Positions 2,037 to 49,313 of a stretch of DNA of 64,000 nucleotides are shown here, one piece after another. How positions within the stretch are numbered: the first letter of the stretch is position 1; every line of letters starts with the position of its first letter. The position numbers were made by a program, and so were the translations under genes. The notes under the pieces were generated by a model. That model was given only the letters and a program-made list of their open reading frames with translations. It was not told the origin of the DNA and did not search any database. The DNA comes from a virus: positions 22,288-86,287 of the IMG/VR virus record IMGVR_UViG_3300033149_004284; one strand, 5' to 3'.

Positions 2037-2080
2037 TTCTCAAGGGAGATAAGCCTAAGGCAGACTTACTCCCCGCGACT

Positions 2081-2788: not shown

Positions 2789-2831
2789 GTCTTTCTCCTT
2801 TATGTAGATAAACGGCTAACCGATCTAGGCC

Positions 2832-28121: not shown

Positions 28122-28193
28122 TTGTTGCGAATAGACTGATGGCGCAGGGGGCTCTGCTAAGTTGTGATAAGCTGGTCTAAGGAGATATCCATT

Positions 28194-29624
28194 ATGCCGA
28201 TTTTAGGGCGAATTGCAAAGAGACGACTGGTTGAGGCAGCGGTTCCTGTTGACGATACGGCTTCCGATACCTCTCGATGGCGCCGATTGACCGAGAAGGC
28301 CCCCAGGAACCTTTCTGACTACGACCACAAGCGAATGTTAGATATCGCCTTGTATCTCTATCGCTTCAATCCATTAGCCCATCGAGGCGTTGAGATCATG
28401 CGAGATTTCGTAGTGGGCAGTGGCATTCGTATTGAGGCCAAGGACAAATCCATCCAGTCAGTCATAGATAGGTTCTGGAACAATCCCGTTCATAAGATGG
28501 ATCGCCTGCTGGCCAGGATAGCCTTCGAGCTCAGTCTCTATGGGGAATTCATATCTCCCGCACTGGTAAACAGGCATAACGGGGATGTCGAGCTGAGTTA
28601 TATTTCCCCCCTCCAGGTCAAGGATGTCACTCTCAATCGAGGAAACCTTCTCCTGTTTGATTCAGTCGAGATCATGCCCACTGACATCTCTACCGAATCA
28701 TCGAAGCTCAAGGTCATCAACCTAGAGACAGATGTTGAGGCCCACCTCGATCCTGAGGACCCAAACTCGCCCTCCACCTATGGCTATCGAACTGGAGACT
28801 GTTTCTACTTCTCGGTGAACCGAGTAGGGGATGCCAGCCGTGGCCTGAGCGATCTCCTGGCTGTTGCCGATTTCGTAGACAGCCTCGACCAACTTATCTT
28901 CAATTCATTGGAACGCATGACCCACGAGACAGGCTGGCTCTGGGATATCGAGATGCAGGGGGCCTCAAATGAGCAATGCCAGCAGAAAGTCGCGGAGTTA
29001 GAGGCCGCTCCTCCCCGACCGGGCTCCTTCCTAGTCCACAACGAATGGGTCAAGTGGAACCCCATGAAGATCGGTCTGGAAGCCGAGAACGTCACTGACG
29101 AGTCTCTTCTCATTCGGAACTATGCCCTGGGTGGCATGGGAGTTCCCGTTCACTTCTTCAGTGAACCGCAAGGAGCAGGTCGTGCTGTCGCTGAGTCCAT
29201 GGCTGCTCCAGCCTATCAATCTCTGGAGTCTCGCCAGTCTGAAGTTGAGGGCTTTGTTCGGGAGATTCTGGACTTCGTCATAGACCAGAAACTCGTTCGG
29301 AAGATGCTAGACAGCAACTTGGATCGAAGCTATGATGTGATCATGCCAAAGATTTCCCTCCGCAATCTCCAGCGTACAGGAGGGGCCATGAACAGGACGG
29401 CGCAGGCTCTCAAGACCGCCCAAGACGAAGGTTGGATCGATAGCGAGCAAGGAAAGAAAGTCTTTGTGGCCATGCTGGAGCAACTTGGGCTGGGTGTAGA
29501 CCTCACTCCTAGCCAAGAGTTGCCAGGTGTCGCTTCTAGCCAAAGGCTACCGTCTGATGTAGGTTTTAGCCAGGCAGATGTAGGTGTCGCTTCTAGCCAG
29601 GAACTGCCCAAGGAGCTGCGCTGA
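28194..29624 (+). CDS. portal protein
   Basis: position after TerL; YRFNPLAHRGVE..DFVVG, ELSLYGE, RGLSDL, GVPVHFF; ATG at 28194 after AAGGAG. Confidence 0.85.
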   Translation: MPILGRIAKRRLVEAAVPVDDTASDTSRWRRLTEKAPRNLSDYDHKRMLDIALYLYRFNPLAHRGVEIMRDFVVGSGIRIEAKDKSIQSVIDRFWNNPVHKMDRLLARIAFELSLYGEFISPALVNRHNGDVELSYISPLQVKDVTLNRGNLLLFDSVEIMPTDISTESSKLKVINLETDVEAHLDPEDPNSPSTYGYRTGDCFYFSVNRVGDASRGLSDLLAVADFVDSLDQLIFNSLERMTHETGWLWDIEMQGASNEQCQQKVAELEAAPPRPGSFLVHNEWVKWNPMKIGLEAENVTDESLLIRNYALGGMGVPVHFFSEPQGAGRAVAESMAAPAYQSLESRQSEVEGFVREILDFVIDQKLVRKMLDSNLDRSYDVIMPKISLRNLQRTGGAMNRTAQALKTAQDEGWIDSEQGKKVFVAMLEQLGLGVDLTPSQELPGVASSQRLPSDVGFSQADVGVASSQELPKELR

Positions 29625-31102
29625 TGCAAATTGGTCTTTTGCTTAGCTCCAAACACCATGCTGAGATGTTAGCATCTGGTAACAAGACCATGCTCATCAG
29701 AGCGAGGCGTTTCTACCGCTATGTCCGCATACCAGTCTACCTGCTGGCTGATCAGAAGTGTTATGCCAAGATGGTTCTTGGGTCTCCCCAAAAAATAGAC
29801 CTGAGTGGGTTTAGAGCATTGCGGAGTCAACACAGAGTAACTGAAAAGGAAAGGGAGCAACAGTGGCCTGACGAACTAGACTTCTACAGCTATAAAGTCC
29901 AGGTTCTCGAAACTTACGATCCGCCTAAGAAGGTTAAGTTCCCTCCCACCTCTCAGGCTTGGGTACGCCATTGGGAATGGTTAGACCGCCCTCCCAAGGA
30001 GCTCCATCTTGAGAAGGTGGCTGACCTAGAACACTATCATCCGTCCAAGATTCCTGACACAGCACGCGGCAGTGCTATCCTCAGGGACGACGCTCGGCTA
30101 CTCTTGGCCTACTGGTCGTCAAAACGGTCAGGCAAGGATGTCAAATATACCTACGACCTCTTGGAGCAGAAGTACACAGCCATCCTCCGTGAACTCGTTC
30201 GCAGGAGAGCAGCTCAGTTCAGTCCTCAGAACTATAAGCCTCATGCTAGAGATCTATTTGACAGAGCTGCGCGAACCCTCCAGTTGGAAGGTATTACTGT
30301 CCCACTCAGAAAGAGCTCGCATCTGAAAGGACTCACAGCCCTCCAGAATATGACGGATAAGGAACTCCTGGCTCACCATGACCACTTGCATCAAATGTAT
30401 GCTGAGGGCAAAGTGACTAAGGAGAGCATCGTCAATGCTCATATCTTTGCAGTCCAGGCAATGAGACATAGGGGCCTATCTCACAAGATCGAGGATGACC
30501 TTGACAGGGAGCTCCAGGGATCTGCTGCATCACGCCTCGTCCCCTTCGTCATCATAGACTCAATGGTTTGTCAAACTGGCTCTTCTGTCTACGACATCAG
30601 GCCCCCTCACGACTGCGACTTAGTGATACGCAGCGATGAGGAAGACTCCAAGATGACCGCAGCTATCCTTAAGGCCGTTAACCTCCCTCCATCAACCATC
30701 CACCGTATTTATGAACCCAGAGGCCCCTCCTTTGACTATGTGGCCCTCCTGGATTATGTAGCAGTGCCAGTAGCCTGGAAAGGTACCTGGACGAAGAAGA
30801 GCATCCGCCCCGAGGACATCCCCGAACACTCTTGGGCTATCTATCGGCAGTTGCCTCCTGCCGTCTTAGTCCACGACCCCTTCGTCACTCAAAGCAACAA
30901 TACTTTCTACGTCCGAGATGCTCGCCGCAACACTGGCATTGAGATCAAGCTCACCAGGCTGTTAGCGGCTAACCTCTCCTTCCGATGGCGCGGGGAGGAC
31001 GAAGCCATGGCAGGAACGCCGCTCTTTAAGTCTTTCCTGATTCCACATATACCTCTGAGGAGGGCCAAAGTCGATGAGCCTTTCTTCCGAAGATACTACT
31101 GA
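29624..31102 (+). CDS. multidomain protein: ASCH/PUA-like, helical His-rich, nucleotidyltransferase-like
   Basis: HAEMLASGNKTMLIR (ASCH-like); ELLAHHDHLHQ..IVNAH..MRHRGLSH; QTGSSV..HDCDLVIR (Pol-beta GS..DxD). Confidence 0.6.
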   Translation: MQIGLLLSSKHHAEMLASGNKTMLIRARRFYRYVRIPVYLLADQKCYAKMVLGSPQKIDLSGFRALRSQHRVTEKEREQQWPDELDFYSYKVQVLETYDPPKKVKFPPTSQAWVRHWEWLDRPPKELHLEKVADLEHYHPSKIPDTARGSAILRDDARLLLAYWSSKRSGKDVKYTYDLLEQKYTAILRELVRRRAAQFSPQNYKPHARDLFDRAARTLQLEGITVPLRKSSHLKGLTALQNMTDKELLAHHDHLHQMYAEGKVTKESIVNAHIFAVQAMRHRGLSHKIEDDLDRELQGSAASRLVPFVIIDSMVCQTGSSVYDIRPPHDCDLVIRSDEEDSKMTAAILKAVNLPPSTIHRIYEPRGPSFDYVALLDYVAVPVAWKGTWTKKSIRPEDIPEHSWAIYRQLPPAVLVHDPFVTQSNNTFYVRDARRNTGIEIKLTRLLAANLSFRWRGEDEAMAGTPLFKSFLIPHIPLRRAKVDEPFFRRYY

Positions 31103-32186
31103 GATTCGTGGTCTCCTGTATCGAGATAGGCAGACTAAGGTGGCATTAAGGTTTCTCAAAAGGATAAATGTATCCCTAGAAGCCATTAGGCGAAACCTCG
31201 CAAGAGCAGAGGAGGCCCTTGCGGATGAGCCTCTATCTAGCAATGTGAGACTTCTAGCCGGCAAGTTTCTGCTAGCGGAGGAAGACATCCCTCTGGAGGA
31301 TTTGGGTATTCTGACAAAGACTCCAAATCTAGCCAGCATCATCATTCTGAACTACAATACTCTCAAGATCACCTCTGACTGTATCAAAAGCGTTCTAGCC
31401 TTGACTGAATACCCTGCGGAGATGATAGTAGTTGATAACGGCAGCACGGATGGCAGTGTGGCCTGGCTCAAGAAACAGAATTACCTAACTTTGATATCTA
31501 ACAAGAATAACCGTGGCTGGACTGCCGCAAACAATCAGGGCATCAGAGTCTCCAAAGGGGCCTACTGCCTGTTACTTAACAGCGATACCATTGTGAGGAC
31601 AAGGGGCTGGCTCAAAGCCATGATTCGCCTCGCTCAGCCCCCTGACGTGGCGACGGTCGGGGCCAAGCTTCTTTACCAAGATGGTACCATTCAGCATATA
31701 GGGGGCAGCATCCACGACGTCAATCCCTTCCATCCCTTTGACGGAGCGCCTGCCGACATTCCCGAATCACTTAAAGTCAGAGAAGTCCCTTTCAACACGG
31801 GGGCCTGTCTCCTTATCAAGAAATCCGTCATCGAGCGGGTGGGCTTACTTGACGAGAAATATGTGTTCGGTTATGGTGATGTGGACTATGGCTTGAGGTG
31901 TCTTGAGGCAGGATTTAGGAATCTCTACTGTCCATCGTCTATCCTAACTCATCTCTGGGCTTACACTCAGCGAAAAACAGGCAAGTGGATTCCATCTGAG
32001 AGCTTTGCCAGGTACAAACAGAAGTGGACTGACAAGACGCCCGCTCTCTCTAAAAAGGTTGACATGGATTTCAGGTGGCCTGATTCTGCACAGTATATCA
32101 GAAGGACTGGTCCGGGCAGTCATATAGCAACTATTCGCAAGAAGGAGAGCGCTATGACCTGGGGGGCATTAAATGAAAACCAATGA
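31074..32186 (+). CDS. GT2 glycosyltransferase
   Basis: SIIILNYN, VVDNGSTDGS, NRGWTAANNQG, LLNSDT, TGACLLI, DVDYGLR. Confidence 0.92.
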   Translation: MSLSSEDTTEIRGLLYRDRQTKVALRFLKRINVSLEAIRRNLARAEEALADEPLSSNVRLLAGKFLLAEEDIPLEDLGILTKTPNLASIIILNYNTLKITSDCIKSVLALTEYPAEMIVVDNGSTDGSVAWLKKQNYLTLISNKNNRGWTAANNQGIRVSKGAYCLLLNSDTIVRTRGWLKAMIRLAQPPDVATVGAKLLYQDGTIQHIGGSIHDVNPFHPFDGAPADIPESLKVREVPFNTGACLLIKKSVIERVGLLDEKYVFGYGDVDYGLRCLEAGFRNLYCPSSILTHLWAYTQRKTGKWIPSESFARYKQKWTDKTPALSKKVDMDFRWPDSAQYIRRTGPGSHIATIRKKESAMTWGALNENQ

Positions 32187-33024
32187 GTTTGAGCCTAAAG
32201 TCTTTGTCAAGAACGCAAAGGAATCTGGGCAGCAGGTATCTCTAACCATGGTCACCTTTAATCGGTGGAATCTCACTCAGCAGAGTCTCTCTTCCATTTT
32301 CGAGCACACTCATCTGCCATACATTCTGACTGTTGTCGATAACGGGAGCTGGGACGAGACGAGGGAAAACCTACAGGAACTCAGGCGGTCTGGTAAGATT
32401 AACAGATTGATTCTTCTCCCCGAGAACCGAGGCATTGACATGGGGAAGAACTTCGGCCTGCGAGCTACCCAGGGCCAGGCTAGCTGGTACTGCTGTATCG
32501 ACAACGATATCAGAGTCAGTCCCTACTGGCTCAGCTACCTCTGCTATACATCTACTCTCCCTCGCCTTGGCATAATCGGCTGCAATGTTCAGGGATTTGG
32601 CACTCCTGGAGGCCCGAGCTGGTTTACACCCACGCACTGGAAAACTGTGAAAGGAGTTGTCCTAGACAACTGCCCTAATCCAGGTGGAATCTATGTCATC
32701 AGTGCAACTACATTCGAGAAGCTAGGCTTCTTCGTTGAGAGGGGCCTCTACGGTCTAGGGGACAGCCAATACTACTCACGGGAGTTTCAACATGGCCTCA
32801 GAAGCGTCTATGTGAGAAATGTCGATTGCAGAGAGATACCTGATGAGGACTTTGTGATGGCAGACGGTACGTCGTATAGGACTTTCAAGGCGACTTCTCA
32901 CAACTCTATGCGTCAGAAGGTCAGAGAAATGGCATCTCAAGGCATTGATATCCACCCAAAGCATTACGAGACTAGAGTAACGGCCCAAGAAGTTGAGAAG
33001 TATACCTGGACGCCAGAATCATGA
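32173..33024 (+). CDS. GT2 glycosyltransferase
   Basis: VTFNR, VVDNGSWD, ENRGI, CIDND. Confidence 0.88.
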   Translation: MKTNEFEPKVFVKNAKESGQQVSLTMVTFNRWNLTQQSLSSIFEHTHLPYILTVVDNGSWDETRENLQELRRSGKINRLILLPENRGIDMGKNFGLRATQGQASWYCCIDNDIRVSPYWLSYLCYTSTLPRLGIIGCNVQGFGTPGGPSWFTPTHWKTVKGVVLDNCPNPGGIYVISATTFEKLGFFVERGLYGLGDSQYYSREFQHGLRSVYVRNVDCREIPDEDFVMADGTSYRTFKATSHNSMRQKVREMASQGIDIHPKHYETRVTAQEVEKYTWTPES

Positions 33025-33050
33025 CCTTAGATACTTAGGGGTCCCCAACT

Positions 33051-33527
33051 ATGATTTTAGATGCAGGATCAGGCATGGCATCGAACCCAAGAGCCAACAT
33101 ACTCATGGACAAATATCTTCAAGGAGACAGTACCTCTCGTATAACGGGCACTCTTATGATTCGCAAAGGACAGACTATGATTTGTGGTGACCTTGAGGCC
33201 ATGCCATTTCTGGATAAGTCCTTCGACATTGTTATTTGCTCTCAGACGCTCGAACATGTTGATAATCCTGAGAAAGCCTGTGCTGAGTTGGTGCGGGTAG
33301 GAAGGAGTGGTTTCATAACTGCGCCAAACGAGACAGTAGAAAGGCGTCGATATGAGCGTCGCGAGAAGCTCTATCACAAGTGGCTTATCAAGCAACGGGG
33401 CACTCACCTCGACTTCTATCTCAGAAGTCTCGTTCCAAGCCTCCCGATGATGGAGCATCCTAGCCAGGGCGTGGATATGGCTTGGAAAGGGAGCTTCACT
33501 TGGTCAGTGTTCAGAGAATCGCCATGA
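33051..33527 (+). CDS. class I SAM methyltransferase
   Basis: ILDAGSG, MPFLDKSFD..CSQTLEHVDNP..ELVRVG. Confidence 0.88.
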   Translation: MILDAGSGMASNPRANILMDKYLQGDSTSRITGTLMIRKGQTMICGDLEAMPFLDKSFDIVICSQTLEHVDNPEKACAELVRVGRSGFITAPNETVERRRYERREKLYHKWLIKQRGTHLDFYLRSLVPSLPMMEHPSQGVDMAWKGSFTWSVFRESP

Positions 33528-34516
33528 CAAGACTCCCCAGAGTCCTATTCGTTAGCATAGCTCCGTCTCTCCACACGGAGTTCTGGGCTGCTGGCTTTAT
33601 GAAGGCCCTTCGCAAAGTTGCCGTTCCACTGGCTTTCCCTTTCAGGAAAATGGCTCATGACCACGGGGCAGCCTACATGAACGAGACGCTAGTGGAAACT
33701 GCTCTGGAGTTTCGTCCTGACCTGATCTTTATTAGGAAGGGGGAAAGCATTCTCGGCTCTAGCATTAAGACGCTCAGGGATTCCCTGCCTGCTTATATCA
33801 TCTACTATTGTGGGGACTTCCGTCTCAATCCAGTCTCCTTCATCGTCGATATTGGACGATACGCAGATTGTACCATTTTCAACAACGAGGACGAGAAGGT
33901 TGCTGATAGATATCAGGTTGCGGGTGTGAGACATGTGGGTCCTTGGTGGGACGGTGGAATTGACCCAGAAGTCTTTTGCCCGCAAGACGTACCCAGAGCC
34001 TGGGACCTAGCCTTCATGGGCACTAACGTCCCCTTGCCTCACAGGGGCTATCAGGTACGTCGCCAACTACTGGAGGCTATCGTCGAGAGTAACTACTCTC
34101 TTCACATCTTCGGTGGGGCTGAAGGCTGGAAGTACCTCCACACGAATACCCACCCGTTCGTTTATGGCCCTGCTTTCGCTAAGGCCTGTTCTCAATCGCG
34201 TATCACTCTGGGCGTCAATGGAGTGAACGACATGTATCTGTATGCTTCCTGGCAACGTACTTTCAAGTCAATGGCCAGTGGAGCGTTTCACCTTACTCAC
34301 TATGTCCCTGGACTGGAGACGTTCTTTGAGAACCGCAAGCATCTGGTCTGGTTCATCTCCATACCTGAGGCGATGAGTCTCATTGCTTACTATCTCACTC
34401 ACGACGAGGAACGTGAAGAAATAGCCATGGCAGGCCGACAGGAGGTTCTTGCTCACTTCACTTGGGACGATGCTGTCGCAAGGCTTATGAGGATTTGGCA
34501 AAGTGACTGCTGTTGA
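33524..34516 (+). CDS. CgeB-like GT-B glycosyltransferase
   Basis: FRPDLIF..KG, DLAFMG, SRITLG.N, RTF..MASGAF.LT, YYLTHDEEREEIA..G..HFTW. Confidence 0.88.
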   Translation: MTRLPRVLFVSIAPSLHTEFWAAGFMKALRKVAVPLAFPFRKMAHDHGAAYMNETLVETALEFRPDLIFIRKGESILGSSIKTLRDSLPAYIIYYCGDFRLNPVSFIVDIGRYADCTIFNNEDEKVADRYQVAGVRHVGPWWDGGIDPEVFCPQDVPRAWDLAFMGTNVPLPHRGYQVRRQLLEAIVESNYSLHIFGGAEGWKYLHTNTHPFVYGPAFAKACSQSRITLGVNGVNDMYLYASWQRTFKSMASGAFHLTHYVPGLETFFENRKHLVWFISIPEAMSLIAYYLTHDEEREEIAMAGRQEVLAHFTWDDAVARLMRIWQSDCC

Positions 34517-35986: not shown

Positions 35987-36022
35987 GACATATAGGAGAA
36001 GACTTACCTGTGAGGTGAAGGA

Positions 36023-38971: not shown

Positions 38972-38981
38972 GAGTAGCGCC

Positions 38982-41892: not shown

Positions 41893-41903
41893 GGAGGGAA
41901 TAG

Positions 41904-42233: not shown

Positions 42234-42239
42234 AAACCT

Positions 42240-45200
42240 ATGTCTGAGCTTCTGATTCGCAAGGTCGGCAACATCTGCTTTGTGCTGGACGAGAAGGGCA
42301 AAGATGTCTCAGGTGACTATGCAGACAGCCTTAACCAGTACAGAGATCTCGGGTTGTCCTCATTCTCCCTGTCAGCGCTGGGCTATGAGAATTCTCTCTA
42401 TCCTACTGACTGCCTGGAACTATCAGGGGAGAGCCTGGCTGAGCTCTCCCATCAGGAACGGGTAGACTTGTTCCTCACGGCTCTTCCCCAAGACCAGGAT
42501 ATCTCCTTCCGGCAATCGAAGCAAGTAGAGCTATTCAAACCCTTCACTCCGCTGAAGGCCCGCACTGGCTATGGTCTCTATGAGTTCAATAACAAACAAG
42601 ACCTCTGGGAGATGTGGGCCAAGGAGCGCATAGAGGCCAAGCGACCGATTGCTGTTCAGGCCAAGTTTGACGGTATCCGGCTTATCGTATTCAGGAAGGG
42701 CGACAGAGTTCAGATGCTCACCGAGGATAAGAAACGAGACCGTGCTTCTATTCTCCCTGAAGTCGTAGCAGAGATTAAATCTCTGCCAGGCGACTCCTGC
42801 ATACTGGATGTGGAAGCTGTCATTTGGCAGGAGAATCAGCCCATTCCTCGTCGTGAGATGATAAAGATGGTTGTGGGCAAAACACCTCTCAGGGGTGAGG
42901 ATATCCACATTAATGTCCACGATTGTCTGCTAGTAGATGGTAAGCCTCTTAACACTGAGCCCTACTCGGTGCGATTGGCAGCTCTTGACGAACTTCTCCC
43001 TAAGGATAAGAAGTTTCTCAGAAAGGCTCAAACTTGGGTAGCTAAGACTAAAAGCGAGTTCCTGTCTGCCCTCGACAAGGCATCTGCTTATCCTGGCTCA
43101 GAAGGAGCTATGGTCAAAACCTTGGATAGCGACTATCCTATTCGGGGTCGTACCCGAGAAGAGACTGCTGACTGGGGAAAGTTAAAGTTGGCGGTGGAGC
43201 TGCATTGCAAAGTCATAGGGCGTACTCGCAAGCCTAATCCCTGGCCTCCTGACGAACGCCCCAAACGCAATCTCCAGGGTGATGAGGCCCTTAAAGCCTT
43301 TCGTAAGTTGCAGAAAGGCTCCAAGACTTTCTACTATCGCTGTGCCCTTCGGGACGGTAAGAAGCTCATCCCTATCGACTCTGAGCACAAGCTGACTCCT
43401 GGAAACCTCTCCCTCAAGTGGGACGCCGAACACGAGGGCGGAGTCTGGAAAGGCACTGACGACCCTGAAATCTGGGAGATGGCTAAGGGTTTTGAGAACA
43501 GGCCCCGAGGCGACTGGGCTTATGGCAATACCTACGCCGTTAAGTACGACCCTCCGCCGAAACTGGGCGATATCATCACAGTGGCTCCCATCCTGATGCG
43601 AGCCTGGAAGGACAACAGCACTACTCACTACTCCTGGACTTTTCCTAGATGCAAAGAGTTTGATCCTACCCGTACACAGCCTGACACCGTCCAGGACGCA
43701 GAGCGCATCGTGGCAAAGTCTCCCAAGTCCATCCGCAAGCATGTTCGTCCTGGGCCTTTTGGGCATCCTGGAGGCAAAACCGTCTTGCTGAAGCATATCC
43801 TGCCTAGGATACCTGCCCATGAGACTTATTGTGAGCCTTATGTCGGATCAGGGGCTGTATTCTTCGCCAAGCCCAAAGCCCACAAGTCAGTTCTAGGGGA
43901 TACAGACCCTGAGATAATAGCAGCCCTCCGCTTTGTTCGGGACGCCTCAGCAGAGGATATCGAATGGCTGCGCAAGCAGAACTGGCAGCCGTCCAAGGGT
44001 CGCTGGCAGTTCCTCAAGGATCAAAAGCCAGTCCGCAAACGAGAGCGCTTCTATCGCTTTAGATACCTGGATATCAACTCCTGGGCTCACTCGCCTGCTA
44101 AAGGCTTCGCCCGTAGCAACCAGCCCGCATCCATGAAAGCCGAAATGGATAAGATCAGGGCAGGCCAGCAGAAACTACGTGGCAATGTCTCTATCGTCCA
44201 GCAAGACGCCTTCAAGACTATGCGGGAGAATGACTCACTGTCTACTTTCCACTACATTGATCCGCCCTATTGGGGCAGTGGTGACCTTCAGCCCTATGGT
44301 GGTAAGGCCCCTGACCCCGAAGCCCTTGTTAAGTTCCTCAAAGGACTACGCGGCAAGTGGCTACTATCCATGGCAGACAAACCTAGAACGCGCAAGGCCT
44401 TCAAGGATTTCAATATCAAGTCAGTCTCTCGTCAAATGACTTATACAGTTTACTCGCGTAAGACTAAGGCTGGTCAGCCAACACGCACTCGCCGTGAGCT
44501 CCTAATTGCTAACTACGACTTCGCCGATCTCCACGAAGCCGTAGTTCCTCCTGGCGAAGGCGAGAAACCCACCCACAAGAAGCAGCGTGCTGAGGCTGAG
44601 CGCAAGTTCGGCGATCCCTACATGGTTCACCAACCTCCCGACAAAACCTTTCCCTTTGTCTATATGCACCATGAGCGGGGTATCTGGACTCAGGCTGAGC
44701 TTGTGGGCCTACGCGCCGCACTCAAGAACGCCAGACGATATCCTGATCTTATTCCTGACATCTGGAAACGTTACAAGCCTGTCGTCCTAACGACTAGCCT
44801 AGAGTCTCTCAGGCGAGACGCAGAGGCAACCTCCGAGAAGCGGGGTGATGTCACTGCTGCTGTCCACAAGCACCTTGACGAGAAACCTCCCAAAGTTCTT
44901 CCTTCCAACAACAAGATACTCAATGTGGGCAATGTCCATGGTGACTGGCGAATGCGCTCTCCAGAGGGCGAGTTCCTCATTGGGTGGACCCTCTCTACCC
45001 CGTCGGTTGTACTCCAGTTTGCCGACGGCAAAACCGTCTATCCTATCAGGGACAGATTCCTTGAGAACAAGGAGGGCGACAAGATAGTAGCCTACCGCAA
45101 GTGTCCTAATCCACTCTGTGACGAGGAGCGCTATTTACGCCTAGTTGAATCCAATCCTCATGAGAGCGTGTCCCAGATGTTCGCCAGCGAGGAGGGCGAA

Positions 45201-46271
45201 ATAATTCTCGGTTCCCAACGTCCGTTAGCTATGCGATTGGCAGAATCAGGTGCAATCCAACTCTTGGCAGGCTTGCCAGAGAATCTTACTCAGGAATCGG
45301 TTCAGCCGATGGTATGGCTCACTATCGTCAATCCTAAGCGTCTCGTCTATCAGGTCTCAGCTGGAGGCGTAGGTGCAACGGCGAAGACTGGCGCTAGGTT
45401 CATCTTTCGGGATGCTGGGAAAGTGGCATATGGTTGCCAAAAGTCGGATTTCCATGAGGGGTTTTTCTGGTTCAACCGCCACAAAAATCTCTCAGGCCGC
45501 TGGGGAGTCCAGGAGCTAGCAGGTAGGCCTGAGTACACAAAGCTCGGAACTGAGGGTAACTGGTGGATGGTCAATCATGTCGTCAAAGACCCTCGGCCCT
45601 ACATCCTCCGCTACTCCCGTGATGCTAAGGAGCGGCAGGCTAAAAAGGAACATCTCAAACACATCATCTGGAACGCCGATGTCCTCAAAGTTCTCAAGGC
45701 TGACCCTCATGGCCGCAAATGGCTAGGGCTAACCTCCCAGAAGAAACTAGACGAGAAGTGGGCTGAGTTCTCTGCTGGCAATGGAGAGTTTCGCCTTCGC
45801 AAATCGCTCAGCTTCAGCTCGAAGCTCTTTCACTCACCGGCCGCCGAAAAGCAACTGTTTGTCTATGGGGCAATTCTCATCCCAGGCAAAACTGACGCTC
45901 AGGGCCACCATGTTACAGCAATAGAGGTCGCTAAGGCCATTCGCACAATGGGGGACATTGGTTTCGATATTGAGCATTCTGAGAAAGTCTCTCCCAACGA
46001 TCTTAGGCTTACCCAAATCTTCCAAGCCCCAGTTGGGTTCAAGATTGGCAGCCAGCATTTCAAGAAAGGCACTGCTATTGCCGAGATCGCTGTTCTGTCG
46101 CCCGCGATTCGCAAGCGTGTTCTCTCAGGTGAGATCAGGGGCTTCTCGATCTCCGGGAAAGGGGTTATGGACAACTCGGCAGGCCTGTACGACATTAAGA
46201 TTCAGAAGATCTCCCTTGTTGGGAGCCCTGCTATCAAAGAGGATTTCATAATAAAGGTTGAGGACGTGTAA
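42240..46271 (+). CDS. polyprotein: ATP-dependent DNA ligase, Dam-like adenine methyltransferase, LigD-type phosphoesterase, XkdF-like protease
   Basis: QAKFDGIR, ILDVE, EGAMVK, WGKLK; HPGGK, EPYVGSGAVFF, IDPPY, ELLIANY; FVYMHHERG..HGDWR..LIGWT; VYGAILIP..DAQG..IEH..GEIRGFSISG..ISLVGSPA. Confidence 0.85.
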   Translation: MSELLIRKVGNICFVLDEKGKDVSGDYADSLNQYRDLGLSSFSLSALGYENSLYPTDCLELSGESLAELSHQERVDLFLTALPQDQDISFRQSKQVELFKPFTPLKARTGYGLYEFNNKQDLWEMWAKERIEAKRPIAVQAKFDGIRLIVFRKGDRVQMLTEDKKRDRASILPEVVAEIKSLPGDSCILDVEAVIWQENQPIPRREMIKMVVGKTPLRGEDIHINVHDCLLVDGKPLNTEPYSVRLAALDELLPKDKKFLRKAQTWVAKTKSEFLSALDKASAYPGSEGAMVKTLDSDYPIRGRTREETADWGKLKLAVELHCKVIGRTRKPNPWPPDERPKRNLQGDEALKAFRKLQKGSKTFYYRCALRDGKKLIPIDSEHKLTPGNLSLKWDAEHEGGVWKGTDDPEIWEMAKGFENRPRGDWAYGNTYAVKYDPPPKLGDIITVAPILMRAWKDNSTTHYSWTFPRCKEFDPTRTQPDTVQDAERIVAKSPKSIRKHVRPGPFGHPGGKTVLLKHILPRIPAHETYCEPYVGSGAVFFAKPKAHKSVLGDTDPEIIAALRFVRDASAEDIEWLRKQNWQPSKGRWQFLKDQKPVRKRERFYRFRYLDINSWAHSPAKGFARSNQPASMKAEMDKIRAGQQKLRGNVSIVQQDAFKTMRENDSLSTFHYIDPPYWGSGDLQPYGGKAPDPEALVKFLKGLRGKWLLSMADKPRTRKAFKDFNIKSVSRQMTYTVYSRKTKAGQPTRTRRELLIANYDFADLHEAVVPPGEGEKPTHKKQRAEAERKFGDPYMVHQPPDKTFPFVYMHHERGIWTQAELVGLRAALKNARRYPDLIPDIWKRYKPVVLTTSLESLRRDAEATSEKRGDVTAAVHKHLDEKPPKVLPSNNKILNVGNVHGDWRMRSPEGEFLIGWTLSTPSVVLQFADGKTVYPIRDRFLENKEGDKIVAYRKCPNPLCDEERYLRLVESNPHESVSQMFASEEGEIILGSQRPLAMRLAESGAIQLLAGLPENLTQESVQPMVWLTIVNPKRLVYQVSAGGVGATAKTGARFIFRDAGKVAYGCQKSDFHEGFFWFNRHKNLSGRWGVQELAGRPEYTKLGTEGNWWMVNHVVKDPRPYILRYSRDAKERQAKKEHLKHIIWNADVLKVLKADPHGRKWLGLTSQKKLDEKWAEFSAGNGEFRLRKSLSFSSKLFHSPAAEKQLFVYGAILIPGKTDAQGHHVTAIEVAKAIRTMGDIGFDIEHSEKVSPNDLRLTQIFQAPVGFKIGSQHFKKGTAIAEIAVLSPAIRKRVLSGEIRGFSISGKGVMDNSAGLYDIKIQKISLVGSPAIKEDFIIKVEDV

Positions 46272-46351
46272 GGAAAAGGAGACCTTCGCCTTAGCCATCA
46301 TCTGGGAACTTGAATGAGGAAAAGACATGGCCTTAGATTCCTTCCTAGGAC

Positions 46352-46380
46352 TTGACAAGCGCAGCATAACCGGTTATAAT
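46352..46380 (+). promoter_or_regulatory. consensus sigma70 promoter upstream of the capsid gene
   Basis: TTGACA-N17-TATAAT. Confidence 0.9.
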
Positions 46381-46634
46381 GAAGATAACAAAGCTCATCC
46401 CATAGTGCGGGCCTGGATTAGCCAACTAATTCAGTCTAAAGAGCTAGCCCTGGTCCTAGACAGGTATGAGTTTCGGCGTATCGATGTGACGCTCTCAGCT
46501 AGTGGAGGTAAGGCGGTACTCAAACCGACGATCTCGTTTCGCTAATCACATAACCGCTCGCAATAGGCGGAGCAACTGTTTTGTAGTGAGGAGGAGACTA
46601 CAGCCTCCTCTCTTTCATTCTAAGGGAGGTAACA

Positions 46635-49313
46635 ATGGGTTTCACATTAAAGGTGAAAGGTTGGATTGAGGACTTCGTGAAGGCGGCTGAGGCGTCCAAA
46701 GAGGAGATTCCCAAGGCGGCCCAGGGTAGCTTCACTCGCCTGAAACTACTCTCGGCCCAGAAGCCTGTCAAGGATGTGGAGTCTAGCCGCAACTCCGAGG
46801 GTCTGGAGAAGCTTCAGGCATTCCTGAAGAGTGTGAAGGGCAAAGCCAAGTTGGAGACTGTTGCCAAGAAAGCCATTGACAACCTGACCGAATACTTTGG
46901 GAAGGACTATGGGGCAAAAGGGGAGGTCGCAAAAGCTTCCACTTATGTCTGCCCAAAGTGCGGCTACAAGGGCAAGCCTGACAAAGACGGCAACTGTCCC
47001 AAGTGTGGCACTAAGATGAAGGTGGATTACGGGAAAGCCTACGGCGACTACGGCAAGACCAAGTATGAGGATTATGGCAAGACCGAAGTTGCCAAATCTG
47101 AGCCCCATCCCCACGGCAAGCATGTCGTCTATTGCCCTAAATGTGGCTATGAGGAGACAGTCGAGGCTGGCGTCAAGGCTAAGGACAAGAAGTGTCCCAA
47201 GTGCGGAACTCGGATGCGGGCTAGGGAAATAGGTGAGCGGCGCGAGGCTGTCCACTTCAGGACCCTAACTGGCCGACTTCTTGAAGCTGTTGAAGGCACA
47301 GAGGGTAGCCAGTGGGAAGTCACTCTCATCGAGGCAGGCGTCTCTGAGAATCGCACCAAGTACAGTCTCCCTGTTCTTGAAAAAGCGCTTCCCCTCTTCG
47401 ATGGTGCTAAGTGCTTCGCTGACCATTCAACTGCCTCTGAGCGTCGCGAGCGCCCTGGACGCTCTATCAGAGACATCGTAGGCTGGTTTGAAAGCCCGAA
47501 AGTTCTCGGCGACGGAGTCAAAGGAATTGGGGCTGTCTTCAACATCCTAGAATCAGAACGATGGTTTCGAGATAAAGTCGTAGAGGCCTGGGAGCGAGGC
47601 AAACGAGACCTCATTGGCTTCTCGATCAGCGCCATCGGCAGACAGAAACTGATTCGCGAGGAGGACAAACTCCTCAAGGAAGTCGTTTCGATTGACAAAG
47701 TACAATCTGTAGATGCTGTCACTGAGCCTGCAGCTGGTGGCAAATTCGTGAAAATGCTAGAAGGGAAGGAGGCAGAAGAAGTGAGCCAACTAGATATTCT
47801 GAACACCATCACACTGGAGAATCTGAGAGAGGTGAGGCCAGACTTGTTCCCTGAGCCTGCTTCTGAGCCAGAGCCTGATTTGGAGCCTACGCCTGAGCCA
47901 GAGACTGAACCATCTCCTGATCTTTCTCACCTCACTGAGGCGGTCAAAGAGATCGAGAGCCTAAAGGCTACCCTGGCTGAAATGCAGGATACGTCTCGGA
48001 AGACGGATCTCAAGGCGCAGCTTGACTCGGCGCTTCAGTCCAGCGGTCTTCCCAAGCCTGTCCAGGATAAACTTGGGCGACGCTTCTCTTCTCTCGAATT
48101 CACCTCGGAGACTCTCACTGAGGCGATTCGCGAGGAGAAGGAAGTCTTAGCCCAAATTCTGCCACCAGAGCGTCGTTACTTCCCATCAATCAAGATGGGC
48201 GAGAGCGAGCGGGACAAGATTGACAAGGCTATGGATGGTCTCCTGGAGGGCGAAGATATCGACGGGATTCCTCGCTTCAGGAATCTGCGTGAAGCCTACT
48301 CGATAGTCACTGGTACACCGATTCTGGATGTCAGAGCTCAGCATATCCTGAATGCGTCGTCAGCCTTTGACTCGTCAGTTGGTTTCTTGCGAGAGGAGAT
48401 ATCGACAAGCACTTGGACGAACGTCTTCGGAACCAGCATGACCAGGAGACTGCTTAAGGAATACCGCAAACCTGGCTATGATGACTGGAAGAAGATTTGC
48501 TCCAGCGTCGAGACTCTCGACAACATGAAGTCCCAGGAGCGAGTCCGCATAGGTGGCTATGTTGCCCTCAGCTCGGTTTCCGAGGGAAGCACCTACACAG
48601 AGCAGTCGTATGATCCTCCAAATGAGATGCAGAACTACACCCCGACCAAAAAGGGTAACTTGGAGAGTATCACACTGAAAGCTATCGCCAACGACGACCT
48701 TGGTGCTCTACGGCGAATTCCCAAGGCTATGGCCTTTGCAGCCAAGGTGGGTGTCTACAAGGCAGTTTTCGACGTTCTGACCACGAACGCTGCAATGAAC
48801 TATGATTCAGTGGCTCTGTTCAACGCGGCCAGTCACGGGAACTATGGGACAACTGCTCTTAGCTATGAAGAGCTCACAAGTGCCAAGAATGCTATGCTGG
48901 AGCAGATGGAGCCAGTAGGGTCTGGTGGAACTGAGCTCACCTATCTGGACGTGGAGCCCAAGTACTTGCTGGTTCCACTAGAGCTCCGAGGCACAGCCTG
49001 GGACCTCATCAATTCGCCAGTTAGGGCACTTGCCAGTTCCTTCAACGCAACTCAGCCCAACATGCACTATAAGACGCTTGAGCTGATTGTAGTGAGGCAC
49101 TGGACTGATTCTAACAACTGGTACTTGATCGCAGACCCTTCATTGATTGCAACCATCGAGGTTGGTTTCTATGGTTCTCAGGAGCCCGAAATCTTTACCG
49201 AGTTGGCCAATGCTGGGTCGAATTTCACTGCTGATAAGCTCCGCTACAAGATTCGTCATATCTATGGGGTAGCAGCTCTTGAGCATCGTGGAATGTACGC
49301 CGAGATCGTGTGA
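46635..49313 (+). CDS. Zn ribbons, prohead protease, scaffold and Mu gpT-like major capsid protein fusion
   Basis: two CPKCG..CPKCG ribbons; FADH, RSIRDIVG, IGFSI, SVDAVTEPAAGG; ANDDLG, PKYLLVP.EL, WYLIADP, IEVGF, YKIRHIYG. Confidence 0.9.
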   Translation: MGFTLKVKGWIEDFVKAAEASKEEIPKAAQGSFTRLKLLSAQKPVKDVESSRNSEGLEKLQAFLKSVKGKAKLETVAKKAIDNLTEYFGKDYGAKGEVAKASTYVCPKCGYKGKPDKDGNCPKCGTKMKVDYGKAYGDYGKTKYEDYGKTEVAKSEPHPHGKHVVYCPKCGYEETVEAGVKAKDKKCPKCGTRMRAREIGERREAVHFRTLTGRLLEAVEGTEGSQWEVTLIEAGVSENRTKYSLPVLEKALPLFDGAKCFADHSTASERRERPGRSIRDIVGWFESPKVLGDGVKGIGAVFNILESERWFRDKVVEAWERGKRDLIGFSISAIGRQKLIREEDKLLKEVVSIDKVQSVDAVTEPAAGGKFVKMLEGKEAEEVSQLDILNTITLENLREVRPDLFPEPASEPEPDLEPTPEPETEPSPDLSHLTEAVKEIESLKATLAEMQDTSRKTDLKAQLDSALQSSGLPKPVQDKLGRRFSSLEFTSETLTEAIREEKEVLAQILPPERRYFPSIKMGESERDKIDKAMDGLLEGEDIDGIPRFRNLREAYSIVTGTPILDVRAQHILNASSAFDSSVGFLREEISTSTWTNVFGTSMTRRLLKEYRKPGYDDWKKICSSVETLDNMKSQERVRIGGYVALSSVSEGSTYTEQSYDPPNEMQNYTPTKKGNLESITLKAIANDDLGALRRIPKAMAFAAKVGVYKAVFDVLTTNAAMNYDSVALFNAASHGNYGTTALSYEELTSAKNAMLEQMEPVGSGGTELTYLDVEPKYLLVPLELRGTAWDLINSPVRALASSFNATQPNMHYKTLELIVVRHWTDSNNWYLIADPSLIATIEVGFYGSQEPEIFTELANAGSNFTADKLRYKIRHIYGVAALEHRGMYAEIV

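What the first reader, a model, noticed from the sequence alone, without database searches (positions are those of the whole stretch)
28194..49313. Two head proteases and two candidate cleavage codes (Lys and Glu) at domain junctions
Seen: two different maturation-type proteases, the XkdF-like one at 45850-46271 and another fused into the capsid ORF. Glu motifs recur: LVE-A (portal N terminus), LHE-A (right after the MTase domain), LVE-S, LAE-S, RRE-A and LLE-A (before the capsid protease), LTE-A twice, LRE-A, and LREE (likely mature capsid start). Lys motifs recur: LRK-S in 29624..31102, VAK-S (ligase/MTase junction), LRK-S (before XkdF), and FVK-A, FLK-S, VAK-A, VAK-S in the first 160 aa of the capsid ORF. 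Known: T4 gp21 cuts after (I/L)xE and HK97 protease cuts K/S. Inference: a chimeric head in which two proteases process structural and cargo polyproteins; the MTase would need one cut of each type to be freed.
Basis: partly seen in the sequence, partly recalled or inferred. Interest (0 to 1): 0.8.

Follow-up and report, generated by a model that had tools for sequence, protein, structure and literature searches.

The report
Phage head with two protease cut-codes
An uncultured ~87-kb phage seems to build its head with two different self-cleaving proteases, one fused to the capsid protein that probably cuts after glutamate and one fused to a DNA-repair and methylase cargo protein that probably cuts after lysine; no cleavage has been shown.

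Summary
The capsid ORF (46635-49313) reads Zn-ribbon extension, serine protease, linker/scaffold, HK97-fold capsid protein. The 1343-aa ORF (42240-46271) reads ATP-dependent DNA ligase, Dam methylase, LigD-type 3'-phosphoesterase, C-terminal XkdF-type protease with a T4 gp21/herpes assemblin fold. Both proteases keep their conserved His and Ser.

Within the window alone, enrichment is modest and comes mainly from the capsid ORF. The stronger evidence comes from relatives, with this phage excluded.
- Capsid-fused protease family: hydrophobic-x-Glu-[Ala/Ser] is 4.8-5.5 times over-represented ahead of the mature capsid domain. Reversed motif 1.1-1.3 times, Lys version 0.8-0.95, mature shell 0.75.
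- XkdF-cargo family: hydrophobic-x-Lys-[Ala/Ser] is 2.4 times over-represented in cargo and 7 times just upstream of the protease. Reversed motif 1.1, Glu version no higher than its own reversed control.

Only 1 of 80 related capsid loci, the closest relative, also carries an XkdF domain, so the two-protease head is specific to this lineage.

Several listed sites lie inside folded elements or are not conserved. No cleavage is demonstrated. This scan has already noted a lysine motif for XkdF-type proteases on other DNA. Verdict: a new variant of known kinds, of moderate to high interest.

The parts
28194..29624 (+). Portal protein. The likely true start is the ATG at 28194. It carries a hydrophobic-x-Glu-Ala site (LVE|A, nt 28227-28238) about 12 aa from the N-terminus.
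   Evidence: phrog_10963 portal, 1e-34. The 66%-identical relative in L005 starts at the equivalent Met and keeps LLE|A at that position.
29624..31102 (+). Post-portal 492-aa protein with no family match, a possible head cargo. It carries V-P-L-R-K|S (LRKS at nt 30305-30316).
   Evidence: No Pfam or PHROG hit. The relative in L005 has I-P-I-K-K|S at the same place. The site resembles the motif found upstream of XkdF domains. The protein as a whole is not enriched.
42618..43712 (+). poly1343, ATP-dependent DNA ligase part (aa 127-491).
   Evidence: PF01068 6e-22 and phrog_114.
43710..43721 (+). Candidate Lys site VAK|S (aa 491-494) at the ligase/methylase junction.
   Evidence: P1 is Lys, or Arg in the three closest homologues.
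43746..44528 (+). poly1343, Dam-type (D12 class) N6-adenine DNA methyltransferase (aa 503-763). It has no site of either type inside it.
   Evidence: PF02086 1e-17 and phrog_56 1e-37. Zero Glu or Lys sites in aa 495-763.
44529..44540 (+). Candidate Glu site LHE|A (aa 764-767) at the methylase/phosphoesterase junction.
   Evidence: Glu-[Ala/Ser] is kept at this otherwise variable junction in 5 of 8 homologues: LHE|A, AFE|S twice, LKE|A and LLE|A.
44637..45779 (+). poly1343, LigD-type 3'-phosphoesterase-like domain (aa about 800-1180). A disordered insert spans aa 957-1030 (nt 45108-45329) and carries LVE|S 968, LAE|S 1000 and QE|S 1019.
   Evidence: VIA-align gives 3p4h Z 8.4 (116 of 118 residues, rmsd 2.9) and 3n9b Z 7.7. 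pLDDT is below 50 over model residues 182-251. The Glu-[Ala/Ser]-x-Gln-Pro at the end of the insert is kept in 5 of 5 homologues that have the insert.
45795..45806 (+). Candidate Lys site LRK|S (aa 1186-1189) in the linker before the XkdF domain. It is the probable self-release site.
   Evidence: It lies in a low-confidence linker, aa 1181-1199. Across the family, hydrophobic-x-Lys-[Ala/Ser] is 7.2 times enriched 8-35 aa before the first core strand.
45837..46271 (+). poly1343, C-terminal XkdF-type (Peptidase_S78_2) protease domain with an assemblin/gp21 fold. Conserved residues are Asp1219, His1246 and Ser1303.
   Evidence: PF14550 above cut-off. T4 gp21 5jbl Z 10.3, rmsd 2.6 over 115 residues; VZV protease Z 9.8 (Foldseek). 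Asp, His, Ser and Gly are invariant in 104 family members.
46635..47285 (+). Capsid ORF, N-terminal extension (aa 1-217) with two Zn ribbons (Cys 106/109/121/124 and 167/170/187/190). It has five hydrophobic-x-Lys-[Ala/Ser] sites and ends in LLE|A (nt 47277-47288).
   Evidence: DUF7129 and Zn-ribbon hits. Lys sites are 5 against 0.84 expected. V-x-K-[A/S/G] precedes all 5 ribbons in the window and L004, but not in L003. The LLE|A column is Glu in 30 of 37 homologues and the next residue is Ala or Ser in 32 of 37; this motif ends nearly every N-terminal extension.
47286..47759 (+). Capsid ORF, fused serine protease domain (aa 218-375) with His264 and Ser330.
   Evidence: phrog_15531 2e-22. Ser330, Gly368 and Gly369 are invariant and Asp360 is nearly invariant. 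A His is present in the loop of nearly all 37 homologues. Nearest ESM Atlas clusters are Peptidase_S77. No Pfam hit even at E 10.
47760..48395 (+). Capsid ORF, Pro/Glu-rich linker plus helical scaffold-like segment (aa 376-587). Glu sites are at 433, 494, 521 and 551, and LRE|E at 585-588 (nt 48387-48398).
   Evidence: Low-pLDDT stretches with long helices. The family linker is 4.8 times and 5.5 times enriched in hydrophobic-x-Glu-[Ala/Ser]. Columns 551-554 and 585-588 are conserved.
48396..49313 (+). Predicted mature HK97-fold major capsid protein (aa 588-892).
   Evidence: PF25209 8e-36. Foldseek and VIA match HK97-fold capsids and encapsulins, including HK97 and D3, with Z up to 15.5. The junction consensus is hydrophobic-x-Glu|[Ser/Ala] followed by a Ser/Thr-rich stretch ending in Trp or Phe.

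Best explanation
This is the head module of an uncultured tailed phage that carries two serine proteases of the assemblin/gp21 superfamily with different predicted specificities.

(1) The capsid protein is made as a polyprotein: Zn-ribbon extension, protease, Pro/Glu linker and helical scaffold-like segment, then HK97-fold capsid domain. After assembly the fused protease, which looks most like the T4 gp21 (S77) type, is inferred to cut after Glu in hydrophobic-x-Glu|[Ala/Ser]. That would detach the N-terminal extension at Glu217|Ala218. It would chop the linker and scaffold at several sites. It would leave a mature capsid protein starting at about residue 588.

(2) A 1343-aa polyvalent cargo protein holds a DNA ligase, a Dam methylase and a LigD-type 3'-phosphoesterase, and ends in an XkdF-type protease. 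That domain is inferred to carry the cargo into the procapsid and to cut after Lys in hydrophobic-x-Lys|[Ala/Ser]. Its likeliest site is Lys1188|Ser1189, just upstream of itself.

The three domain junctions of the cargo carry a Lys, a Glu and a Lys site. Release of the methylase may therefore need both enzymes.

Shown here: the domain architecture, the conserved catalytic residues, the fold of the XkdF domain, and the family-level motif enrichment with controls. Inferred: that the motifs are cleavage sites, which enzyme cuts which site, and that the cargo is packaged and injected.
For: Architecture and folds.

Catalytic residues:
- Ser330 is invariant and a His is present in the loop (His264 in this protein) across 37 capsid-fusion homologues.
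- Asp, His and Ser are invariant in 104 XkdF-family members and present in this protein.
- hhalign lines up the His and Ser of the two proteases, though weakly.

Glu code, with the window's protein excluded:
- Linker 201 against 41.7 expected, N-terminal extension 50 against 15, mature capsid domain 20 against 24.
- Reversed motif 1.06 times and Lys version 0.95 times.
- Replicated in 62 non-redundant IMG/VR ORFs: linker 364 against 66.6, reversed 1.27 times, Lys 0.79 times, capsid domain 0.75 times.
- A Glu-centred profile with no preset motif picks out only P3 (Leu, Phe, Val, Ile) and P1' (Ser, Ala).
- Conserved columns sit at 215-218, 551-554 and 585-588.
- The nearest Atlas neighbours are Peptidase_S77. 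T4 gp21 and its phiKZ-type relatives cut after Glu (PMC9026906).

Lys code, with the window and its 3 close relatives excluded:
- Cargo 223 against 93 expected, with reversed and permuted controls at 0.8-1.1 times. The Glu version is 1.25 times, equal to its own reversed control.
- 73 of 97 proteins are above expectation, Wilcoxon 3e-10.
- The stretch just upstream of the protease has 84 against 11.7.
- Two phages whose annotated head modules show no other protease fit the pattern. In Dulem virus 37 the capsid protein has IIK|A at aa 7-10 and the XkdF protein has 9 Lys sites. In Limnohabitans phage DC31 the scaffold-like protein has 12 Lys sites against 1 Glu site.

Lineage specificity: the relative L004 has the same gene pair side by side. 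Only 1 of 80 capsid-fusion loci has an XkdF domain.
Against: - No cleavage product has been observed.
- Within the window, poly1343, portal and orf492 are not enriched in either motif.
- The capsid extension's Lys sites are kept in 3-4 of 5 positions in L004 but in 0 of 5 in L003, where two have changed Lys to Gln. Homologues of the capsid ORF in general have no Lys enrichment in their extensions.
- The motif upstream of XkdF domains also occurs in stand-alone 129-135-aa proteins. It could therefore be part of the domain or a docking motif rather than a cut site.
- The fold of the capsid-fused protease was not tested on its own. It has no Pfam hit, and the S77 link rests on language-model and predicted-structure neighbours, which are leads only.
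- Family members are related, so the z-scores overstate independence.
Confidence: 0.6

Rival explanations
1. Only the Glu system acts in this head. The XkdF domain on poly1343 serves mainly as a capsid-targeting anchor, with at most self-release. The Lys motifs elsewhere in the window, in the capsid extension and orf492, are chance products of Lys-rich sequence and an internal duplication.
For: poly1343 and orf492 are at chance for Lys sites. Two of the five Lys sites in the capsid extension belong to one duplicated Zn-ribbon unit, and none is kept in L003. Homologous extensions show no Lys enrichment. Iyer et al. 2017 propose only a general processing role for C-terminal assemblin-like peptidases.
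Against: Five sites against 0.84 expected in the extension. V-x-K-[A/S/G] precedes 5 of 5 Zn ribbons in the window and L004. The XkdF family keeps its Asp, His and Ser, and its cargo is 2.4 times enriched in the Lys motif.
Confidence: 0.2
2. The conserved hydrophobic-x-Lys motif upstream of XkdF domains is a docking or structural element, for example an edge strand or a peptide that binds the capsid interior. It is not a scissile bond, and the cargo stays uncut by the XkdF domain.
For: The motif is present in stand-alone 129-135-aa family members that have no cargo to release. Within the XkdF domain a conserved I-x-K-A-A-H segment also scores as a 'site' while clearly being structural.
Against: In this protein the motif lies in a low-confidence linker and not in the fold. 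The same motif is enriched throughout unrelated cargo regions, and in the scaffold and capsid N-termini of two phages with an N-terminal XkdF gene. A docking element next to the domain would not explain that.
Confidence: 0.1
3. The motifs are by-products of amphipathic helices or coiled coils in scaffold-like segments and have nothing to do with proteolysis.
For: Several sites lie in predicted helices, for example 494, 14 and 63. The linker is rich in Leu, Glu, Lys and Ala.
Against: Reversed and register-shifted motifs of the same composition are not enriched, at 0.4-1.5 times against 4.8 times for Glu and 0.8-1.1 times against 2.4 times for Lys. Each family shows only its own residue at P1. 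The mature capsid domain is not enriched.
Confidence: 0.05

Closest known systems
T4 prohead protease gp21 (Peptidase S77) with its substrates, including scaffold gp22 and internal proteins IPI-III and Alt (review PMC9026906)
   Same: A serine protease inside the procapsid that cuts after Glu in a short L/I-x-E motif. It degrades the scaffold at many sites, trims the capsid protein's N-terminus, and has a matching site near its own N-terminus. It also releases packaged cargo. The capsid-fused protease here shows the same motif pattern, and its nearest Atlas neighbours are S77.
   Different: Here the protease is covalently fused between an N-terminal extension and the scaffold-like segment and capsid protein. 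It has no PF03420 hit at sequence level. The cargo is fused to a second protease instead of carrying a short targeting peptide.
HK97 maturation protease gp4 (Peptidase S78), which removes the capsid protein's delta domain at Lys103|Ser104 (from my own knowledge)
   Same: An assemblin-fold His/Ser protease with a Lys|Ser-type cut. This is like the hydrophobic-x-Lys|[Ala/Ser] pattern tied to the XkdF-type domain.
   Different: The XkdF domain belongs to a separate Pfam family, PF14550. Here it sits at the C-terminus of a 1343-aa enzyme cargo and is probably not the enzyme that matures the capsid protein.
Phage polyvalent proteins with a C-terminal assemblin-like peptidase (Iyer, Burroughs, Anand, de Souza, Aravind 2017, PMC5512222)
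   Same: Several nucleic-acid enzymes in one polypeptide with the assemblin-like peptidase always at the C-terminus, predicted to be processed during virion assembly. Cargo partners found here match that paper's inventory: D12 methylase, InPase, 2H phosphoesterase and ligase.
   Different: That work gives no cleavage motif and does not describe a second, capsid-fused protease in the same head. The ligase + Dam + LigD-phosphoesterase combination and the Lys-motif statistics are additions made here.
Prohead protease/major capsid protein fusion proteins (NCBI name; PHROGs 4523 and 29592; closest isolate Microcystis phage Mae-JY22, PP438414)
   Same: The same protease, linker and HK97-fold capsid order. 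Identity to the Mae-JY22 ORF is 32% over aa 223-892.
   Different: The Mae-JY22 head region examined shows no relative of poly1343, and 79 of 80 related loci have no XkdF domain. The window adds a Zn-ribbon extension rich in Lys sites.
PBSX XkdF-type protease-scaffold proteins (PF14550), for example in Dulem virus 37
   Same: The same protease family and the same Lys motif in the scaffold part and at the capsid N-terminus.
   Different: There the protease domain is N-terminal, is followed by a scaffold, and is the only protease annotated in the head module. Here it is C-terminal on enzyme cargo and is the second protease.

Membership tests
Peptidase_S78_2 / XkdF (PF14550) | Profile match above Pfam's gathering score | tested here: met
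   32.6-37.2 bits against a cut-off of 24, aa 1200-1308. The match is also found in the whole-genome search.
Peptidase_S78_2 / XkdF (PF14550) | Conserved Asp, His and Ser of the family | tested here: met
   Asp, His, Ser and Gly are invariant in 104 members. The window has Asp1219, His1246 and Ser1303.
Peptidase_S78_2 / XkdF (PF14550) | Assemblin/gp21 fold | tested here: met
   5jbl Z 10.3 (rmsd 2.6, 115 aligned) and 1vzv Z 9.8. Foldseek's top hits are herpesvirus proteases and gp21.
Peptidase_S78_2 / XkdF (PF14550) | Proteolytic activity and its specificity | not testable with these tools
   Only motif statistics are available.
Peptidase S77 (T4 gp21 type), for the capsid-fused protease | Sequence profile match (PF03420) | tested here: not met
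   No Pfam family at E up to 10 for aa 215-380. I therefore do not file it as a member by sequence.
Peptidase S77 (T4 gp21 type), for the capsid-fused protease | gp21-like fold | tested here: inconclusive
   In the ESM Atlas, 26 of 30 named neighbours are S77 (score 0.95, 178-179 shared features), and one structural neighbour cluster with S77 has TM 0.75. My own fold searches of the whole model were filled by capsid hits. The order of strands and helices matches that of the XkdF model.
Peptidase S77 (T4 gp21 type), for the capsid-fused protease | Catalytic His and Ser | tested here: met
   Ser330 is invariant and a His is present in the loop of nearly all 37 homologues.
Peptidase S77 (T4 gp21 type), for the capsid-fused protease | Cleavage after Glu in L/I-x-E | tested here: inconclusive
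   The motif is 4.8-5.5 times enriched, directional, and absent from the mature capsid domain. Cleavage itself was not observed.
HK97-fold major capsid protein (PF25209 Phage_capsid_4) | Profile match and HK97 fold | tested here: met
   8e-36. Foldseek matches HK97, D3 and phiXacJX1 capsids. VIA Z reaches 15.5.
Phage polyvalent protein (Iyer et al. 2017) | Several unrelated enzymatic domains in one polypeptide with a C-terminal assemblin-like peptidase | tested here: met
   Ligase, Dam methylase, phosphoesterase and XkdF domains. In 142 of 154 family representatives the XkdF domain is at the extreme C-terminus.
Phage polyvalent protein (Iyer et al. 2017) | Packaged in the virion and delivered with the DNA | not testable with these tools
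   Only the gene's position in the head module, directly upstream of the capsid gene, speaks to this.
LigD 3'-phosphoesterase domain | Fold and conserved His/Asp/Arg motifs | tested here: met
   3p4h Z 8.4 (116 of 118 aligned) and 3n9b Z 7.7. His811, Arg813, His900, Asp902 and Arg904 are invariant in 8 homologues. There is no Pfam hit, so this is a divergent member.
D12-class Dam methyltransferase / ATP-dependent DNA ligase | Profile matches above cut-off | tested here: met
   PF02086 65.3 bits and PF01068 78.7 bits.

The most novel reading that the evidence does not exclude
The cargo-XkdF gene is a portable, self-loading and self-cleaving cassette with its own Lys cut-code. That code is orthogonal to the Glu code of the resident capsid-fused protease. 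A phage could then add packaged enzymes, here a DNA end-repair and methylation kit, to a head matured by an unrelated protease. The two codes together would set which pieces are freed, and perhaps in what order. If so, cut-codes could be read from sequence to predict injected phage proteins across metagenomes.
Probability: 0.3. Interest if true: 0.8.

Novelty: new variant of a known kind. Interest (0 to 1): 0.62.

Why it matters
Head-maturation proteases decide which proteins stay in a phage capsid and are injected with the DNA. If protease families carry cut-codes that can be read from sequence, packaged cargo and mature protein ends could be predicted for uncultured phages. On present evidence the codes are Glu for the gp21-like capsid-fused type and Lys for the XkdF type.

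A head with two orthogonal codes would be a natural test case. It would show how cargo modules move between phages and how processing is partitioned. The cargo itself is a ligase, a Dam methylase and a 3'-phosphoesterase. This suggests a delivered kit that repairs and protects incoming phage DNA from host nucleases.

The system could also be used to load foreign proteins into capsids, as was done with the T4 targeting sequence.

Tried and rejected
- A profile of the XkdF family against PDB sequences gave no match at E up to 10.
- Pfam gave no match at E up to 10 for the capsid-fused protease domain, for the phosphoesterase-like domain, or for the 72-aa ORF at 46327-46545.
- Foldseek and VIA-align searches with the whole capsid model were filled by HK97-fold capsids, so they do not test the protease domain.
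Gene neighbourhoods of most protein-database homologues could therefore not be fetched, and IMG/VR loci were used instead.
- The search for related loci with the 37-sequence alignment failed for lack of a conserved stretch. An 8-sequence alignment worked.
- The 304-aa ORF upstream of the capsid gene in Mae-JY22 is not related to poly1343. The 542-aa ORF further upstream, which I took for its portal, is not related to the window's portal.
- Literature searches for an experimentally determined XkdF-type specificity found nothing in the held library.
- hhalign between the two protease families was weak (E 0.007, probability 5.6%). I use it only to note that the His and Ser line up.
The numbers were taken from earlier alignments instead.

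Full report
**What is there**

The window is part of contig C244 of a 2.57-Mb, 411-contig metagenome-assembled genome. The contig is about 87 kb. From about 22 kb onward it reads as a phage structural operon on the + strand.

The genes run in this order:
- a terminase nuclease half;
- the portal (28164/28194-29624, phrog_10963 1e-34);
- a 492-aa protein with no family match;
- an island of about 11 kb of glycosyltransferase and methyltransferase genes;
- a 1343-aa ORF (42240-46271);
- a 72-aa ORF;
- an 892-aa capsid ORF (46635-49313);
- neck and tail genes.

The closest isolated phage is Microcystis phage Mae-JY22. Its 771-aa capsid ORF is 32% identical over aa 223-892. An IMG/VR contig of 91 kb (L004, L005) is a much closer relative, with 64-66% identity. 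It has the same pair of genes side by side, a 1507-aa ORF followed by a 913-aa capsid ORF.

**The two proteases**

The first is on the 1343-aa protein.
- Its C-terminus matches Pfam Peptidase_S78_2 (XkdF) above the curated cut-off.
- An AlphaFold model of aa 780-1343 (mean pLDDT 76) places this domain closest to T4 gp21 (5jbl, Z 10.3, rmsd 2.6 over 115 residues). Herpesvirus assemblins come next, with the VZV protease at Z 9.8.
- In 104 family members Asp, His, Ser and Gly are invariant. This protein has Asp1219, His1246 and Ser1303.

The second lies between aa 218 and 375 of the capsid ORF.
- It matches 'head maturation protease' and 'major head and protease protein' PHROGs. It matches no Pfam family even at E 10.
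- In 37 homologues Ser330 is invariant, Asp360 is nearly invariant, and a Pro-Ala-Ala-Gly-Gly segment is conserved, with Gly368 and Gly369 invariant. Nearly every sequence has a His in the loop that holds His264.
- The order of strands and helices in the model is the same as in the XkdF model. A weak profile-profile alignment puts the His and Ser of the two domains in register.
- In the ESM Atlas its nearest named neighbours are Peptidase_S77, the T4 gp21 family. That is 26 of 30 hits at score 0.95 with 178-179 shared features. One structural neighbour cluster carries S77 at TM 0.75. I treat this as a lead, because the domain could not be folded and searched on its own.

**The rest of the two polyproteins**

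The 1343-aa protein also holds three enzyme domains.
- An ATP-dependent DNA ligase (PF01068, 6e-22).
- A D12-class Dam methylase (PF02086, 1e-17).
- A domain at aa about 800-1180 with the LigD 3'-phosphoesterase fold. It matches 3p4h at Z 8.4 with 116 of 118 residues aligned, and 3n9b at Z 7.7. It is interrupted by a disordered insert at aa 957-1030.

The capsid ORF starts with a 217-aa extension carrying two Zn ribbons. After the protease come a Pro/Glu-rich low-confidence stretch and long helices (aa 376-587). Then comes an HK97-fold capsid domain.

**Are the motifs more than chance in the window?**

All listed motifs exist. Against composition-preserving shuffles:
- the four head proteins together hold 9 LxE[AS] against 3.1 expected (P 0.006);
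- they hold 14 [VLF]xK[SA] against 6.8 (P 0.014);
- Asp, Arg and Gln versions are at chance.

These patterns were defined after looking, so the values are optimistic. By region, the signal is in the capsid ORF only. Its extension has 5 Lys sites against 0.84 expected (P 0.002). Its linker has 4 Glu sites against 1.2 (P 0.03). Its mature capsid domain has no Glu site. Portal, orf492 and the whole 1343-aa protein are at chance.

**The Glu code at family level**

I left the window's own protein out and counted hydrophobic-x-Glu-[Ala/Ser] in 36 homologues.
- Linker: 201 against 41.7 expected.
- N-terminal extension: 50 against 15.
- Protease: 61 against 16.7.
- Mature capsid domain: 20 against 24.
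- The Asp, Gln, Lys, Arg, Asn, Ser and Thr versions showed at most 1.7-fold excess in the extension, protease and linker, against 3.3-4.8-fold for Glu.

The reversed motif ([Ala/Ser]-Glu-x-hydrophobic) is at 1.06 times. Other registers are at 0.4-1.5 times. This argues against a helix or coiled-coil artefact.

A second set of 62 non-redundant ORFs from IMG/VR gave the same result:
- linker 364 against 66.6 (5.5 times), reversed 1.27 times, Lys version 0.79 times;
- capsid domain 0.75 times;
- upstream extension 4.5 times.

A Glu-centred residue profile with no preset motif singles out P3 (Leu 2.0 times; Phe, Val and Ile 1.5 times) and P1' (Ser 1.85 times, Ala 1.7 times).

Three aligned columns are conserved.
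- Columns 215-218 are Glu in 30 of 37 sequences, followed by Ala or Ser in 32 of 37. This motif ends almost every N-terminal extension, even ones only 5-12 aa long.
- Columns 551-554 are conserved as Arg/Lys-Glu-Ala.
- Columns 585-588 are Glu in 31 of 37, followed by Ser or Ala in 32 of 37. They sit directly before the capsid domain.

The window is the only sequence with Glu at P1' of that last site. Its two closest relatives have LRE|A. This pattern is what T4 gp21 and its phiKZ-type relatives do (PMC9026906):
- they cut after Glu in L/I-x-E;
- they cut scaffold proteins at many sites;
- they cut once at the capsid protein's N-terminus;
- gp21 has a matching site near its own N-terminus.

**The Lys code at family level**

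A search of 1.84 billion representative proteins with the XkdF domain found 596 relatives. In 142 of the 154 best, the domain is at the extreme C-terminus behind 0-1906 aa of other sequence.

The partners include D12 methylase, InPase, ChaB, DNA ligase, 2H phosphoesterases, UDG and a DUF7129 Zn ribbon. This is the phage 'polyvalent protein' design of Iyer et al. 2017. [quoted passage not shown]

I excluded the window and its three close relatives and counted hydrophobic-x-Lys-[Ala/Ser].
- Cargo: 223 against 93 expected (2.4 times).
- The 27 residues just upstream of the first core strand: 84 against 11.7 (7.2 times).
- The Glu version: 1.25 times, no higher than its own reversed control.
- Reversed and shifted Lys motifs: 0.8-1.1 times.
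- The excess is broad. 73 of 97 proteins are above expectation, Wilcoxon 3e-10.
- A Lys-centred profile again picks out P3 and P1'.

Two annotated phages with XkdF-type proteases, and no other protease annotated in the head region shown, fit the pattern.
- In Dulem virus 37 the XkdF-scaffold protein has 9 Lys sites. The capsid protein has IIK|A at aa 7-10. The portal has Lys sites at both ends.
- In Limnohabitans phage DC31 the scaffold-like protein next to the XkdF gene has 12 Lys sites and 1 Glu site. The capsid protein has VAK|S at aa 68.

I found no experimental report of XkdF-type specificity in the held library. Earlier notes of this scan on other genomes record the same lysine motif. 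Those are unverified AI notes. The family-wide test here is my own.

**Back to this phage**

In the 1343-aa protein the three domain junctions each carry a site.
- VAK|S at 491 lies between ligase and methylase. P1 is Lys or Arg in close homologues.
- LHE|A at 764 lies between methylase and phosphoesterase. Glu-[Ala/Ser] is kept there in 5 of 8 homologues, although the junction is otherwise variable.
- LRK|S at 1186 lies in a low-confidence linker before the XkdF domain.

The methylase domain itself holds no site of either kind. Two relatives have two extra small Cys-containing modules inserted after the methylase. The linkers around these hold both Glu sites (FNE|A, VRE|A) and Lys sites (VPK|S, IPK|S). 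LVE|S 968 and the Glu-Ser at 1019 flank the disordered insert inside the phosphoesterase domain, so a cut there would nick a loop and would not separate domains. LAE|S 1000 is not conserved.

In the capsid ORF, the model places some sites in or at the edge of low-confidence linkers: LLE|A 215, LTE|A 433, GE|S 521, VAK|A 98 and VAK|S 152. LRE|A 551 and LRE|E 585 are at the starts of structural elements. In contrast, 231, 315, 494, 14, 63, 695 and 707 are inside strands or helices.

V-x-K-[A/S/G] precedes all five Zn ribbons of the window and L004. It is absent in L003, where two Lys have become Gln.

Two further sites are kept in the relative:
- the portal's LVE|A, as LLE|A;
- orf492's V-P-L-R-K|S, as I-P-I-K-K|S.

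**How unusual is the pair?**

Of 80 IMG/VR loci with a capsid-fusion homologue and up to 10 kb of flank, only L004 contains an XkdF-like domain. The normal state of this capsid family is therefore one protease, the Glu type. The cargo-XkdF gene looks like an addition in this lineage. Flanks were incomplete for many loci, so this figure is only a lower bound on co-occurrence.

**Most likely mechanism**

The capsid polyprotein assembles into procapsids. Its fused gp21-like protease then cuts after Glu. This frees the N-terminal Zn-ribbon piece, degrades the linker and scaffold, and leaves a capsid protein of about 305 aa.

The cargo polyprotein enters the procapsid through its XkdF domain, which cuts after Lys, at least just upstream of itself. 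The Glu site after the methylase would be cut by the capsid-borne enzyme.

I put about 0.85 on the Glu code and about 0.65-0.7 on the Lys code as a property of XkdF-type enzymes. I put about 0.35-0.4 on the specific claim that the methylase is freed by one cut of each kind. The overall confidence of 0.6 is for two active proteases with different specificities in one head. None of the cleavages, nor the packaging or injection of the cargo, has been observed.

**Comparison and novelty**

Each component is known:
- Glu-specific prohead proteases;
- protease-capsid fusions;
- polyvalent cargo with a C-terminal assemblin-like peptidase;
- XkdF as a head protease.

What appears new is threefold. First, there is quantitative, controlled evidence that the two protease families carry different sequence cut-codes. 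Second, both occur in one head in this lineage. Third, the cargo is a specific DNA end-repair and methylation set. I class it as a new variant of a known kind.

Noticed in passing
window 31074-41892: About 11 kb of glycosyltransferase and SAM-methyltransferase-like ORFs sit inside the head operon, between the post-portal gene and the cargo polyprotein. A further glycosyltransferase (50645-51808, phrog_7162) sits just before the tail tube gene.
   Followed up: no
window 44637-45779: The middle domain of the 1343-aa protein has the LigD 3'-phosphoesterase fold (3p4h Z 8.4, 3n9b Z 7.7). With the ligase, it suggests a packaged DNA end-healing and sealing kit. No Pfam model detects it.
   Followed up: partly
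P0079 aa 757-942, P0080 aa 756-937 (relatives; P0080 probably equals L004:5169-9692): Two relatives carry two tandem modules of about 75 aa each, containing Cys, Trp and Cys, inserted between the methylase and the phosphoesterase. They have no family match, and their linkers hold both Glu-type and Lys-type sites.
   Followed up: partly
capsid-fusion and XkdF-cargo families: The same small domains turn up N-terminal to both kinds of head protease in different phages: ChaB, HIPIP, DUF6582 and the DUF7129 Zn ribbon. This hints at a shared pool of 'passenger' domains.
   Followed up: no
window 28164-28194: The longest portal ORF starts at GTG 28164, but the 66%-identical relative starts at the Met equivalent to 28194. 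That is probably the true start.
   Followed up: partly
window 46327-46545: A 72-aa ORF with no family match lies between the cargo gene and the capsid gene. Mae-JY22 has a 75-aa ORF in the same position. Their similarity was not tested.
   Followed up: no
window 26574-27506 and 25178-26038: Only the nuclease half of the large terminase is recognisable in 26574-27506 (phrog_38, aa 468-705 of the profile). A separate ORF upstream may be the ATPase half, so the terminase may be split.
   Followed up: no
L007 (Limnohabitans phage DC31, Pakpunavirus) 1329-3340: The XkdF domain is at the C-terminus of a 264-aa protein. The next gene, of 405 aa, has 12 hydrophobic-x-Lys-[Ala/Ser] sites. This is a convenient cultured system for testing the Lys code.
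   Followed up: partly
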